From positions 2,170,001 to 2,234,000 of the forward strand of contig CM035361.1 of the NCBI GenBank assembly GCA_020137815.1: 64,000 nt of DNA, given 5' to 3'. A program made the position numbers and the translations under genes. Origin of the DNA: Hormiphora californensis. Lineage: Eukaryota > Animalia > Ctenophora. Below the pieces are notes generated by a model, which ran no database searches, was not told where the DNA came from, and saw only the letters and a list, made by a program, of their open reading frames with translations. Below are positions 1 to 53,900 of this stretch, piece after piece (the stretch's first letter is position 1; each line of letters begins with the position of its first letter).

Positions 1-3000
1 AGGACCTGAGTTTCTCTTTTGATAGTTGTCCAAGCTGAGGAAGAAGTGGGTTTCTTTTGTTTTTTATGGTAGTTGGGTGGCGCCCTTGTTGGGACAGCTC
101 TGCTTCCCAGCTGTTCGACGCTGGGAGGACTCATTTTGTTTTTTAGCAAACTCTCCTGATTGTCTGTCCTAATTGGCCCCATGCCTATCTAGATAAGATG
201 GTCCAGTTGAAACATGGAAGGAGCTAGTGTCTTTATGATACCCATATATACCAGACCTACCTGTGCTAGTTGGGGCAACTCAACTGATTTCTCCTCAATG
301 CTCTGGCAAGCATCCAACAGGTTCATCAACACACTCCTCATGAACTGGCTGTCGCTCCTGCGAAGAGGCGGATTAGTGACAATGTTATTCCTTGAGTTAG
401 GAAGAGAAGATATGGATTACAAAAACTCCTAGAGCCCAAATCTCTGAACGTATTATTGGGTAGAGGGACTTGAAGTTATCGACCGGGGTTCCTTCCCCGG
501 CCCTGCAGCAAATAGCAATCACGGCCCCGAAGGTACCTGTCATGTTCAGTGGAGAGTAGAGTCCAATCTCCGTCATCAGCAGCAGCAACTAGCTCTACAG
601 AGGAGGAGAGGGCCCTGTGTTGGGCGTACAGGGGCAGGAGGGAGAGGAAAGAAGAACACCAGAGGGTCATCTCAGATAACCTGGGAAATATAGGGAGATT
701 ATACCATATATATGTATTGGTAATCTCGGGGTCATCTCAGGTAACCTGGGAATAAGTCCAAGTCTAGTTAACTTTGGCACTTCTAATTTTCGCCCCAACT
801 ATCAATAAAACCAAACACAGTCGGACCCTGATTTACCGGGATGGTGGGGGAAATTTATCCACCCGGTAAATCAGAGTTCTGGAAAATCTTGTGCTGATAA
901 ATAAGTGTCTGACAGTATTCTAACTTACACAGAAGTCTTGTAAGGGAGACACTCAGAAGTGACGCACTGCAGTCTGTGTTCAGTTGAAGCTACTGATACC
1001 TCACTCATCTCTTGACATATCCCATCCTCTTCGGCAGCTACTAGACTCCTGATACTGCTGCCCAGACGGGATAGACGGGAGAGGGTGCCACTACCCTGAA
1101 AATATAGGGGGTTACATAATTAGTAAATACATACCACTGCCCTGCAGAAACTTCTCTGAATCGCCTTTTCAAGACGATAAATTACCTTGAGTAGAGCTGT
1201 AACGTGAGGATCAGTGGTAAAGAAGGATAGGGTGGACTGGAGAAATGATAGGATGAGACTCTCAAATCGTCCTGCCTCCTGCTCCTGTAGATAATATTAG
1301 ATCGTGGGATCATTAATTTCAAAAAGCACTGATATGATTCCTTTTTTTCTTGATAAAAAGTGCATTTCAAACCTCAACTACTAATATTAGTAAGTACCTG
1401 GCTAATTAGTAACCCATTAGTAATTAGTAAGTACCTGGTTAATTCGGAATAACACTATCCATACTGTCTCGTGGATGTGGTGGGTACTGGATACAGATAA
1501 AGAGACTACAACCTGGGAAAGAGAATTTTTCGCTAGGTAAATTGTCTTTTTTTAGCCTTTGGACTGATAATGGTAAACCTGAAAAACTTCCAAGGCGTCT
1601 ACTCACTCACCAACGTATGGATAAGTCGTTCCAAGGGTCTATTCTCTGATGTTAGTGGTATCAAATGGTAGAGTGCATCAACCAGCCCATAGTTCAGAAG
1701 GATCCAGTAGGGTACTGGGATTCCGCTGAACAACAACACATATCATGTCAACTACCTCACTGAACAAACCTGCAGGAGGAGATATCACGTGATATGCCCA
1801 TATAAGGTGCTATACCACCTGATGCCCATATATGGTGCTATGTGTCACGCAATATGCCCATATATGGAGTTGTACTAACCCGGTTCAGGGAGTGTAGAAG
1901 CGAGTAACCCGACCACAACAGTTCCACCCTCGGGAACAACAGCTAATTCTCTGAATCGGGGTGTAAAGCCCTCACCAAGAGGTAGGAAGAGGGTGGTAGC
2001 TGCCAACATGACGTCACGTGTAACAGGGTAGCGTCGTAGTTGGGCGACCACCAGATGGTAACCTGTGGAATTAACAAGTTAATTAATTAAGCTAATGAAT
2101 CAAGTTTTACGAAAATTGTGGGTCTTTTACGTTATTTTACAAAGCTTACTATGAATCGGACACATTCAACCTAGGTATGTATTTTCTTTACTTACCGTTA
2201 ATTTTAAGGAAATGTTGGCGGAGATGTGGGACCGAGACCATGGCAGCTATAAGACGAATACACCCAATCCTAACTAGTGGGTTGGGATTATTTAGCAGTA
2301 CCAGAGCCTGTTCGATCTCTACAACTGCACCCGTACCCTGAAATGTGGAGGATATAATGTCGATTGAAAGAAACTGAGAGCTGTCAGCTGGGGTATACGG
2401 AATATTTGATTTCCCAAACTAAAGGGTGGAAAACTGGAAAAGAAGCAAAAGTGAAACGGTTCCTTTGTCTGAACAATCACACCGATCCTCTCTCACCGCA
2501 CCCCGTACCGACCCCATACCGATAAAGCTCCAGGTATCAAGCACTGTCACCAGCATCAAAATCCCAATTACCTTGAACATTTTCCGTACAGTTGAATCAT
2601 TAGCGACTCTCGTCACATCCAGGATAAGAGATATGAGACCGCTCTCCAGCGTCACACTGTAACAACCCAGGTCTATACTGCTGTCTTGCGCTGTAACATC
2701 CCCACCTGAAATACATTGTGTCATTACCAATTACTCAATAGTCAACAGTCTCAAACATTATCAATTGGGGTGTACAATTATAGTGTTTCTAATCCATCTA
2801 CACAAGCCCAAAATAGAGAAACTGAAGGGTCTAGAAAATCCATACCTTTCACCCACCCATGGTCAATAAAATCAAGAAACTGTGTATTGTTATGGTTTAA
2901 TTAAATTCCTAATGTACATGTATTGACCCATAAAATACATAACAACATTATCCCTCAAAAACGTTCTCAACTCTTTTCTCGTCATGTCTTTTCCCGTGAC

Positions 3001-50986: not shown

Positions 50987-53900
50987 TCACATGATTCCCC
51001 CGGTAAAATACTGATAATTATCATACAACCTTGTCGTCAGGGATCTTAATGCCTGGTTTACCATCCCCTCAATTTGTTGTCTCAGCTGATCCTCAGTGAG
51101 GGCTAGGAAGAACCGTGATTCCAGGTCGTGGACGGTGGCTGCACGGCGGTTAAAACACGGCCATTGAGATCCAAGTTGCATTATCTCTACTATCAACTTG
51201 ATCCTGCGGCGGAGAAGGGTTAGATCATTTGAAAGGGATATAGAGCAAGAAAAAGATTCCTTGAGAAAGGGGAAGAACGAGTTATTATGACCATATTTTA
51301 AGAATTTTACTCAAATATACGAATTGCTTATTGATATAAATTATAATGTTAGTCGTTATAGTTACCGGTCATAGTGTTTTCTAGCCATAAGAAATCCTTT
51401 CAGCATCAAAATCTTGAAATACCTGAATACAAAAGTGATTTTATTATCAAATCTCAAAAAATGATGTTGTTATATCCTGATCTGCAAATCTGACTAACCT
51501 AAACATGTCGCTATCTAATCTGACTCACCTAAACATATCACTATCTAATCCTCCCATTACATCAGCATACTCCTCAGTCAGCTTGAAAGGTGAGTTCTCG
51601 AACCCAATGTTCTTCCCAGGTGAAGCAGATAACATGAATCCATAGTCAATGTGTATTATATGACCCAAATTGTCCAATAAAATATTCCCGTTATGCCGGT
51701 CTTTGACCTGGACAAAATAACAAAAGAGCGAGTAAGCGGCCAGCGAGTGCACAAAATTTTTCTGAGCCGAGAGGAAGTTTTCTGAAGTCACCGGTCCGAA
51801 CTCCTGAATAAAATAGCCCTGTAGAGGCATTTTGGATTGTTTCTTGATTTGGTGTAACGACACCGTGTTTGGGATGAGTTCAATAAACCCACAATCATCG
51901 CTCGCAACGACCACATTAAAGGGCCTCAACCACAGCTCCAAACTCTCCTCCGACCAGATATTTTGGAATAACTTCAGGAGTTGAGTTGCAACCACTTCCT
52001 GTCGCAAATCATCCCCACATTTAACGATACAGCTGTGAAGTTTCCAACCTGGCAGGTGGCCGTACGGTGAAAACTTGCGGGTTCGCTCCACCGTGTTCTC
52101 CCAGGGCTCTTTCAACCGGGAGGCTGAGGGATCAGTGTTGTCATATGAGAACTTCCCCACACCCCCATTTTCAGAATGTGCGGACAAGTTATTTCGGATG
52201 ACACCAGCTGATATTGTCTGAATTTCATCTTCCCCTGCCGGTTTAATCGGTGTCCCTGGGTCTGCTGAAGATCTGGAGCATCTCAACGGAAGAGGTTCAT
52301 CCGCCCTGGTACACTCTACAAACTCTATTGACACCATGTAAGGGACGCGGTCTTTTGAGTTTAGGACGACTCCCTGATTAGGTGGTATTCGGACCACATC
52401 ATAAAACTGGCTGGATATTGTAGGAACTTTCACCCGGGCAGGCAGGTTGAGGTTTATGATCCCCAACTCCGCGTGGAGTTTATCCATTTTACCCTTTTTG
52501 TCGGGGATTGGACCGAGTTTGTCGCAGATAGCAAGGAAAGATTGGACGAAGTTTTGGAGGACGCCTAGACGGGATGGACTTGCCCGGGACGGCCAGAATC
52601 CGGAGACTGGCTCGTGGAGGGAAAACGCGTTACCTGAAAAATGGGAGGGTAAAACAATGGAAAACTAATTTTTCACAGCTGCTGAGGAGCACTTGAGTAT
52701 GAGCAAGAGATGACTAACAATTTTACTGTTCTTACCCGCAGCCAGGGATGATCTGTCAAATGTAAATGGTGCTCGTATCAGTGCTGTGTCATCGGACCTT
52801 GACCTGGAAATACATAATGATTAACTAGTGGGGGTAACTCGTGGGGTAATTATCGGGGTACTCACATGATAACCTGCTCGAGACATAGTCAAACCCCATT
52901 CAAACTCTCCAGTCTCTCACAAATCCCCCCAGCCCCCAGCCCCCCCACATTATTTATATTATGTAGTATCCCCCAAGGCCAATAACGAACCTGGTATGAG
53001 TTCGCACAAAAGGGACAGGAGCAGTGGAGACAGGTGCAGGTGTTGCCATAACATGAAGAGACTGGGTGGAGGCACTTCTTTTCATCATCGATTCAGCAAT
53101 CAGGGAACCTGTGTGGGCGTGTGAGATTATTATTATTATATCTAAAATTACACAATTAACATAATCCAATGCTTCCCTCTTATTTGCCAGGAGTGTGTGA
53201 GTAATGGACAAATGAGGTGCATCTGTGTAAGCCTTCAAGTTATTCATACAGTATACATTCTGGTATAGATTATAGAATGTACAAAGTAGGAACAAAGTAG
53301 GAACCAGAGGGGGGTCGACCGTTTTTGACCCCTATTTTTGGACCATTTTTGGGGTTACCATCATGTGATAGCGCTTGAAGAAAATTATATGTATACGCTA
53401 CAGTTGATTGTTTGCGGACACAGTAACCGGCGACTCAAACAGTTAGTTCACAGGTCTTTGACCTTTTTTAGAACTTTGATAATCGGTACCTTGTTAAATA
53501 TCAATTGACAACTTTCAGTGAAACTAACGTTCAGGAGAAGTAATGACGCCTCTTCTGCTCTTCATATCATTGCTAACTACAATATCTTGAAGGCGAAGTA
53601 CTCTACGTTTTGCTTCAGGGTTCATCCACGTGTCCCGGGCACAGGCCTTCAACCAGCCGACCTGGTAACAATATAATGATGTAATAAGTTCAACCATCCA
53701 ACCTGGAGTGGGATTCAAAGTCTTATTTAGAACTTCGTCAAAATCATCTTTGAATACGTTCACTAAGTTAGTAATTGTACAATGTGTGGACATGTTGTAT
53801 GATCATGATACAGTTTGTACATTGATATCAACTCACCGTCTTGAGGGCAAAAGCATCATCATTCAGACATCTGCACAGCAGATACGGGTGGATTGAATCA

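What the first reader, a model, noticed from the sequence alone, without database searches (positions are those of the whole stretch)
664..51553. Recurrent tandem duplication of splice junctions, almost always at AG|GT sites (possibly self-erasing, recursive-splice-like duplications)
Seen: at least a dozen exon borders in five genes have one or more extra copies of the junction lying in the intron. Acceptors: 664-753 (65-nt period), 4826-4908 (~38), 10444-10935 (28 x ~17), 11876-12085 (69 x 3), 18110-18232 (x ~5). Donors: 1386-1445 (38), 19346-19435 (70), 21440-21525 (72), 30324-30358, 36244-36320, 48197-48382, 51489-51553 (30). Nearly all junctions read AG|GT, so each added unit begins GT and ends AG. 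Established: duplicating an AG|GT protosplice site can create an intron (the tandem-duplication model of intron gain), and AG|GT ratchet points support recursive splicing. Inference: these duplications may persist because each unit can be re-spliced away as a mini-intron behind a zero-length exon, giving a route to intron growth or gain and to regulated unproductive isoforms.
Basis: partly seen in the sequence, partly recalled or inferred. Interest (0 to 1): 0.8.

Follow-up and report, generated by a model that had tools for sequence, protein, structure and literature searches.

The report
Copied splice junctions in comb jelly
In this comb jelly DNA, 12 of 192 exon edges carry spare copies of their own splice site in the neighbouring intron, 11 of them where the junction reads AG|GT; similar repeats are known from lancelets as "mirages", and the spare sites are likely ignored during splicing rather than re-spliced away.

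Summary
The repeats are real. The window is Pleurobrachia DNA. Of 192 hand-curated junctions, 12 have a copy in the adjacent intron; 0.08 are expected by chance. About half are tandem arrays, the amphioxus "mirage" type (PMC3087553), which this scan has already noted in worms, urchins, abalone and cartilaginous fish. The rest are 14-24 nt direct repeats around a filler, three folding as hairpins and one a piece of a dispersed repeat, which suggests repair or insertion scars. The AG|GT skew holds here: 11 of 86 AG|GT junctions versus 1 of 106 others (Fisher p 0.0007; 0.013 with degenerate cases), and 2 of 224 non-junction AGGT/ACCT sites. Recursive self-erasure is not supported: regenerated donors and unit-end acceptors score no better than controls (p 0.61, 0.60), and many units are shorter than the shortest intron (65 nt). 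No RNA or raw reads of this genome could be examined, and the window was chosen for this pattern. Verdict: a known kind in a new phylum, with an unexplained AG|GT bias worth a genome-wide test.

The parts
664..752 (-). Gene A acceptor 680 (AG|GT): 24-nt direct repeats (664-687 real, 729-752 copy) around a 41-nt hairpin filler
   Evidence: filler fold z -2.61
1386..1444 (-). Gene A donor 1435 (AG|GT): 22-nt repeats, offset 37, hairpin-forming spacer
   Evidence: fold z -3.41 for 1395-1430, which includes part of the repeats
4826..4908 (-). Gene A acceptor 4838 (real AG|GG, copy AG|GT): 37-nt tandem unit x2.2
10444..10934 (-). Gene A acceptor 10463 (AG|GT): 28-nt mirage array x17.5, 9 unit variants among 17 units
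11878..12086 (-). Gene A acceptor 11922 (AG|GT): 69-nt mirage array x3 (branch-point-like CTAAC, pyrimidine tract, AG and 44 exon bases); upstream copies give an in-frame stop
18110..18230 (-). Gene A acceptor 18120 (AG|GT): 23-30-nt array, four intronic copies
18655..18768 (-).
19139..19434 (-). Gene A donor 19425 (AG|GT): exact 19-nt repeats (19416-19434 real, 19346-19364 copy) around a 51-nt palindromic filler; the 3' end of the same intron, including acceptor 19138, is homologous to this first unit
   Evidence: score 67.5, shuffle maximum 36.5; z -3.13
21440..21525 (-). Gene A donor 21517 (AG|GT): exact 14-nt repeats flanking 58 nt of a dispersed short repeat (target-site-duplication-like); second donor is in frame and stop-free (+24 aa)
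30320..30359 (+). VWD/C8-type gene donor 30329 (AG|GT): 12-nt unit x3.3
36243..36348 (+). AdSS donor 36253 (AG|GT): degenerate 32-36-nt array, below the score threshold
48197..48386 (-). Pinin donor 48381 (GG|GT, not AG|GT): several GTGAGT donor copies, with an inner perfect 23-nt array x3.5; below the score threshold
51487..51550 (-). PI4KB donor 51529 (AG|GT): 30-nt tandem unit x2.1; protein alignment shows no insertion at the first donor
53648..53706 (-).
261..25642 (-). Host gene A: 49 modelled exons in one open frame apart from a 1-nt frameshift in exon 1769-1611; LYST/BEACH-like by recalled resemblance only
   Evidence: relative's contigs join at matching places; P0123 match; no Pfam or PDB hit
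33656..38466 (+). Host gene: adenylosuccinate synthetase, 11 exons
41830..48475 (-). Host gene: pinin
50988..54180 (-). Host gene: phosphatidylinositol 4-kinase beta
29271..31816 (+). Host gene: secreted VWD/C8-type protein (weak C8 hit; only the first six exons modelled)

Best explanation
These are local duplications of exon-intron borders of the amphioxus 'mirage' type, likely made by slippage and error-prone break repair or small insertions, which leave the coding exon and one complete splice site intact, so the spare copies likely stay silent in the intron. Shown: copies span the border and lie on the intron side; some are head-to-tail arrays, others are short direct repeats around a hairpin or dispersed-repeat filler; use of the spare site would give a stop or frameshift in every case tested but one. 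Inferred: the first event is a 14-70 nt duplication (staggered break with fill-in or templated insertion for the filler type, slippage for the tandem type); some then expand as minisatellites; the spliceosome takes the copy next to the exon (first donor, last acceptor), as reported for amphioxus mirages and human F7. The excess at borders likely reflects longer survival of copies anchored to a conserved exon plus some bias in formation. The AG|GT skew is real in this sample, and its cause is not established.
For: 12 of 192 junctions carry a copy vs 0.08 by chance. Exon interiors are nearly free of such repeats (0.8% of positions at score 13). Arrays have diverged units (9 variants in 17 units), as in mirage clusters (PMC3087553, passages). 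Mirages are reported not to disturb splicing and F7 uses only the first donor (PMC1557585, abstract and introduction). Spare-site use gives a stop or frameshift at 10 of the 11 sites tested; only 21517 is open. PI4KB aligns to homologues without an insertion across donor 51529. Three spacers fold as hairpins (z -2.6, -3.1, -3.4; 3 of 8 segments folded) and one is a dispersed repeat between exact 14-nt repeats; templated insertions are a described product of polymerase-theta-dependent end joining (PMC2943611, abstract). Assuming 2-fold longer survival weakens the border excess to p 0.014-0.035 and 3-fold removes it.
Against: It does not explain why AG|GT junctions are hit at 12.8% (11 of 86) and other junctions at 0.9% (1 of 106), against an intronic background of 1.7-4.6%. 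Only 1 of 6 fillers shares significantly long words with its flanks, so templating from the flanks is not generally shown. Acceptor copies score as well as the real acceptors, so how the last one is chosen is unexplained. No transcript of this genome was seen.
Confidence: 0.55

Rival explanations
1. Targeted formation: DNA breaks or repair synthesis occur preferentially at functional AG|GT splice junctions (a transcription- or spliceosome-coupled lesion, RNA-assisted repair, or an element with junction preference), and these scars seed mirage arrays.
For: 11 of 86 AG|GT junctions vs 1 of 106 others and 2 of 224 non-junction AGGT/ACCT sites; binomial p 2e-7 to 2e-3 against four background estimates; skew seen in acceptors (6 of 7) and donors (5 of 5) and within gene A (8 of 9); short repeats are centred on the junction and flank hairpin or repeat-derived fillers.
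Against: One window, picked because the pattern was noticed; 9 of 12 cases in one gene; p rises to 0.013 with six degenerate cases; backgrounds depend on masks I chose; if every unit of the pinin intronic array is counted as a decoy, the decoy contrast vanishes (p 0.20); copies match intron, not the spliced neighbour exon, so no cDNA trace.
Confidence: 0.22
2. One reading: each unit begins GT and ends AG and is removed by recursive splicing, which is why AG|GT duplications persist.
For: AG|GT skew; acceptor copies are full-strength; three arrays regenerate donors of 4.0-4.2, inside the low range of real donors, and the 28-nt array spans 448 nt, long enough to re-splice; non-AG|GT junctions are at or below background, as a tolerance filter predicts.
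Against: No selection signature on regenerated donors (p 0.61) or unit-end acceptors (p 0.60); three acceptor cases regenerate very poor donors (-2.1, 1.0, 2.1); many units are shorter than 65 nt; 13 of the 14 host introns are 106-554 nt or, for AdSS, 1960 nt, and one is 3206 nt, whereas Drosophila ratchet points lie in long introns and need a strong donor (PMC8605326, passages); tolerance cannot create an excess over the neutral rate.
Confidence: 0.1
3. Assembly artefact: two divergent haplotypes merged at conserved exon edges, duplicating the junction.
For: The related Hormiphora has about 3.2% heterozygosity with many intronic indels (PMC8527503, passages); the window has apparent frameshifts in exon 1769-1611 and in the VWD-type gene; no raw reads were examined.
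Against: Multi-unit arrays with diverged units, hairpin fillers and a filler from a dispersed repeat family are not expected from haplotype merging; the window has no N; mirages were supported by resequencing and RT-PCR in amphioxus. It could still apply to single two-copy cases.
Confidence: 0.08
4. Footprints of intron gain by tandem duplication of exonic AGGT segments.
For: Intron 19424-19139 has AG|GTTG at both ends and its 3' end is homologous to its first unit (score 67.5 vs shuffle maximum 36.5; the two other high scorers among 52 introns are a microsatellite and a minisatellite).
Against: In the other cases the copy contains pre-existing intron sequence, not the neighbouring exon; donor and acceptor contexts are no more alike than random pairs overall (means 3.27 vs 3.20); no outgroup gene structure was available.
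Confidence: 0.05

Closest known systems
Amphioxus 'mirage' minisatellites (Adh3, globins BflGb6/BflGb9, troponin C, PGBD5). PMC3087553 and PMC3902484, passages read; Canestro 2002 not held, known only through these papers
   Same: Tandem copies spanning an exon-intron border, at both donors and acceptors, units 12-69 nt here vs 10-160 nt there, diverged units, copies keep splice signals, intron gain proposed.
   Different: Ctenophore; at least five sites are two short repeats around a filler, not tandem arrays; an AG|GT skew is measured here and is not reported in the passages read; length polymorphism and normal splicing were shown there and are untested here.
Human border-spanning minisatellites (F7 IVS7 37 bp; CBS IVS13, 6-16, lamin B2, PDGF). 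PMC1557585, abstract and introduction read
   Same: Donor reiterated in the intron; the first site is the one used.
   Different: Human cases described are donors only and scattered; here 7 of 12 are acceptors and 9 fall in one gene.
Tandem genomic duplication and double-strand-break-repair models of intron gain. PMC3443670, passages read
   Same: AG|GT core; short direct repeats around inserted sequence.
   Different: Those models duplicate exonic AGGT and create a new intron; here existing junctions are copied and, with one possible exception, no intron is created.
Recursive splicing ratchet points (Drosophila). PMC8605326, passages read
   Same: Juxtaposed acceptor and donor AG|GT inside introns.
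   Different: Ratchet points are conserved, lie in long introns and need a strong regenerated donor; these are young copies in short introns with weak regenerated donors.

Membership tests
Amphioxus-type mirage minisatellite | Repeat unit spans an exon-intron boundary, extra copies in the intron | tested here: met
   12 of 192 junctions, on exon models checked
Amphioxus-type mirage minisatellite | Head-to-tail tandem arrangement (sites 4838, 10463, 11922, 18120, 30329, 51529) | tested here: met
   Tandem Repeats Finder rows
Amphioxus-type mirage minisatellite | Head-to-tail tandem arrangement (sites 680, 18666, 19425, 21517, 53661) | tested here: not met
   14-24 nt repeats separated by 23-68 nt of other sequence; these work like mirage seeds but are not filed as mirages
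Amphioxus-type mirage minisatellite | Normal mRNA splicing despite spare sites | tested here: inconclusive
   Open frames need the exon-adjacent site and a relative's contigs match the exon model, but no transcript of this genome was seen
Amphioxus-type mirage minisatellite | Copy-number polymorphism or somatic instability | not testable with these tools
   No second haplotype or raw reads available
Recursive splicing ratchet point | Juxtaposed AG|GT in the intron | tested here: met
   All 12 scored copies read AG|GT
Recursive splicing ratchet point | Strong regenerated donor after the first step | tested here: not met
   0-18th percentile of real donors; no better than controls, p 0.61
Recursive splicing ratchet point | Long host intron | tested here: not met
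   106-554 nt for 12 of 14 host introns, 1960 and 3206 nt for the other two
Recursive splicing ratchet point | Intermediate junction reads or lariats | not testable with these tools
   No raw RNA reads of this genome
Intron gain by tandem genomic duplication | Both intron ends derive from one duplicated exonic AGGT segment | tested here: inconclusive
   No excess over 94 introns; one candidate, 19424-19139
Intron gain by tandem genomic duplication | Intron absent in outgroup orthologues | not testable with these tools
   No ctenophore genomic loci reachable; homologue searches for gene A found no full-length relative

The most novel reading that the evidence does not exclude
A mutational process acts at functional AG|GT splice junctions, not at the bare DNA motif, and leaves junction duplications with hairpin or repeat fillers. 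These would be the seeds of mirage arrays across animals and could occasionally rebuild or create an intron end, as at 19424-19139. That would link splicing or transcription to where DNA repair scars fall.
Probability: 0.2. Interest if true: 0.72.

Novelty: new variant of a known kind. Interest (0 to 1): 0.42.

Why it matters
The origin of mirage repeats is stated to be unclear (PMC3087553, passage). This window extends them to ctenophores, shows what look like two-copy seed stages with repair-like fillers, and gives a measurable predictor (AG|GT at the real junction). With chromosome-scale ctenophore genomes and long-read transcripts, both the origin question and the choice among identical acceptors become directly testable. 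If the skew fades genome-wide, this is a dense but ordinary set of harmless intronic duplications.

Tried and rejected
No whole genome is held, so all counts come from this window. No RNA holder was listed for 10001-19900; the one listed run X1 is contigs of a relative mostly under 90% alike, useful only for the exon model; parts without cover say nothing. Automatic gene finding over-predicted small exons and was replaced by a stricter run plus hand curation. A first repeat score with unbounded extension leaked into distant arrays and was replaced. The naive comparison shows no junction excess (5.7% vs 6.1% of intron positions); I rejected it as circular because the junction arrays themselves inflate the intron figure, but with those removed and either direction allowed the excess is still not significant unless low-complexity positions are dropped (p 0.18 vs 0.009). 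Flank-templating of fillers was significant in 1 of 6. A plain AGGT DNA hot spot was rejected (2 of 224). Paper searches listed nothing on junction duplications in ctenophores or on an AG|GT bias among mirages; the library lacks most subscription papers, and Canestro 2002 could not be read. Supplements were not opened; those of PMC3087553 hold mirage alignments that may bear on the AG|GT question.
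Full report
Setting. The window is gene-dense animal DNA without N. A 47-residue exon of the long minus-strand gene A matches one library protein at 100%, a EukProt Pleurobrachia bachei model, which is 96% identical to my model over 170 residues. 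The window is therefore Pleurobrachia, possibly another haplotype or a close species. No whole genome is held.

Gene models. After two automatic passes I curated seven genes by hand: gene A (49 exons), AdSS, pinin, PI4KB, a MADF-domain gene, a nested secreted-type gene and the first six exons of a VWD/C8-type gene. Names rest on Pfam, PDB and homologue hits; 'LYST-like' for gene A is recalled and no tool confirmed it. Gene A reads open across all exons except one with a 1-nt frameshift. Contigs of a relative (run X1, RNA by guess, mostly under 90% alike) join at 11115/11299, 21279/21515 and 21634/21806, matching my introns, and span 1439 letters where my model has 1406 across three acceptor repeats. 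This supports the exon model but says nothing on how this genome splices its repeats. The set has 192 junctions (95 acceptors, 97 donors) and 94 introns, median 176 nt, shortest 65 nt. Exons I could not place (3' half of the VWD-type gene, possible exons at 28200-33000 and 40130-40800) were left out.

Observation. All 12 cited intervals are repeats on exon borders. The AdSS and pinin cases are degenerate. Searching each junction against a different intron end gives 1 hit in 2304. Six sites are tandem arrays (12-69 nt units, up to 17.5 copies). Five are 14-24 nt repeats around a filler, and 1435 is intermediate. Segments at 680, 1435 and 19425 fold as hairpins (3 of 8 segments folded reach z below -2.5). 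The filler at 21517 belongs to a short dispersed repeat seen at 49154-49210, 40234-40266 and 2483-2508, and the similarity runs into the copy itself, so it reads as an insertion with a 14-nt target-site-like duplication. The filler at 18666 is a minisatellite also present at 61189-61352.

Are borders favoured? The raw comparison says no (5.7% of junctions, 6.1% of intron positions), but junction arrays inflate the intron figure. Without them the background is 3.0% (one direction) or 4.6% (either), p 0.015 and 0.18; without low-complexity positions 1.7% and 2.8%, p 0.0001 and 0.009. At event level I reduced the 62 clusters to 32 events: 5 exonic and 13 outside modelled genes dropped, 8 simple-sequence or element-edge clusters dropped, 6 partner halves merged, and two added (53661 and the minisatellite inside the 18666 site). 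Twelve span a junction against 3.8 expected by uniform placement (p 0.0001). If junction copies stay recognisable twice as long, p is 0.014-0.035; three times, 0.11-0.21. So the excess is likely real but moderate, and survival could explain much of it.

AG|GT. It is common here: 86 of 192 junctions. Still, 11 of 12 duplicated junctions are AG|GT against 75 of 180 (p 0.0007), 8 of 9 at the strict threshold (p 0.0075), 13 of 18 against 73 of 174 with six hand-added degenerate cases (p 0.013), and the skew appears in donors, acceptors and gene A separately. Put the other way, 12.8% of AG|GT junctions and 0.9% of others are duplicated, and 2 of 224 AGGT/ACCT sites outside exons and the masked arrays. 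The bare motif is thus no hot spot. Caveats: one window, chosen for this pattern; nine cases in one gene; masks chosen by me.

Recursive removal. With position weight matrices built from these junctions, acceptor copies are as strong as the real acceptors, but the donors that would be regenerated rank in the lowest 0-18% of real donors and are no better than at 30 non-duplicated AG|GT acceptors (p 0.61; six duplicated acceptors with GT). Donor units end in poor acceptors, no better than at 42 non-duplicated AG|GT donors (p 0.60). These tests have few cases and low power. Host introns are short, unlike Drosophila ratchet points (PMC8605326, passages). Using a spare site gives a stop or frameshift at 10 of 11 sites tested; 21517 could add 24 residues. 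A tolerance mechanism could explain the scarcity at non-AG|GT junctions but not a rate above the neutral background.

Intron gain. Donor and acceptor contexts of the 94 introns are no more alike than random pairs. One intron, 19424-19139, stands out: its last 60 or so bases, including the acceptor, are homologous to its first unit, and both ends read AG|GTTG. Either the intron arose by duplication or its acceptor was rebuilt from a donor copy; an outgroup is needed.

Comparison. Tandem repeats spanning exon-intron borders are the 'mirages' of amphioxus, reported not to disturb splicing, of unclear origin, and proposed as a route to new introns (PMC3087553 and PMC3902484, passages). Human F7 and others repeat donors and use the first (PMC1557585, abstract and introduction). 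I reached these papers through earlier notes of this scan, which list many mirages in other genomes, some over-represented at exon edges (AI notes, unchecked). No note mentions a ctenophore, and two look-ups that combined AGGT or protosplice with other words found nothing. Paper searches listed nothing on ctenophore cases or an AG|GT bias.

Verdict. Real feature; the arrays are mirages in a new phylum, and the filler type is a variant that may show the seed stage. Silent persistence by ordinary site choice is most likely (0.55), targeted formation at AG|GT junctions is the open novel reading (about 0.2), and recursive self-erasure is unlikely (0.1). Interest 0.42.

Noticed in passing
window 1611-1769 (-) and 30968-31460 (+): Apparent frameshifts: one extra base in a gene A exon, and several frame changes in the 3' part of the VWD/C8-type gene. 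Assembly errors or broken alleles.
   Followed up: partly
window 7028-7669 (+), 2893-3378 (-), 13216-15310 (+), 49520-50560 (+): Intronless GST and an F-box-like frame nested in gene A introns (the F-box frame on the host's strand), a nested secreted-type gene with a duplicated cysteine-rich exon pair, and a 346-codon hydrophobic ORF between pinin and PI4KB, GPCR-like by eye only.
   Followed up: partly
window 2483-2508, 12759-12797, 21454-21497, 34718-34773, 40234-40266, 49137-49210: A short dispersed repeat family of roughly 40-70 nt with a shared core, in introns and between genes.
   Followed up: partly
window 18678-18743, 61189-61352, 61561-61583: The same 24-33 nt minisatellite motif sits in introns of two unrelated genes, each time close to an exon edge.
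   Followed up: partly
window 43169-43310 (-): A 12-nt array x11.8 starts right at pinin donor 43315; each unit reads AG|GT on the sense strand and the array is an open frame.
   Followed up: partly
window 5479-6242, 14471-14929, 20003-20984, 26184-26862, 36499-38081, 44293-45569: Long self-matching (inverted or dispersed) elements, MITE-like by appearance; masked in the counts.
   Followed up: no
window 1795-1864, 19157-19201, 22169-22223, 29342-29431, 35588-35637, 61193-61342: Several repeats that do not span a junction still begin within 30 nt of one, while about 25% of usable intron lies that close: a possible general clustering at exon edges.
   Followed up: partly
window, 95 modelled acceptors: 37 of 95 exons start with GT, which seems high against other animals (comparison recalled, not tested).
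   Followed up: no
window 62700-64000 (-) and 55921-55978: Endonuclease/reverse-transcriptase-like retroelement remnant by eye, and a short CCCTAA-like repeat inside another element.
   Followed up: no
window 40133-40800 (+), 28210-28330 (-), 32731-32952 (-): Further exon-like stretches not placed in any model; the minus-strand ones may be upstream exons of gene A.
   Followed up: no
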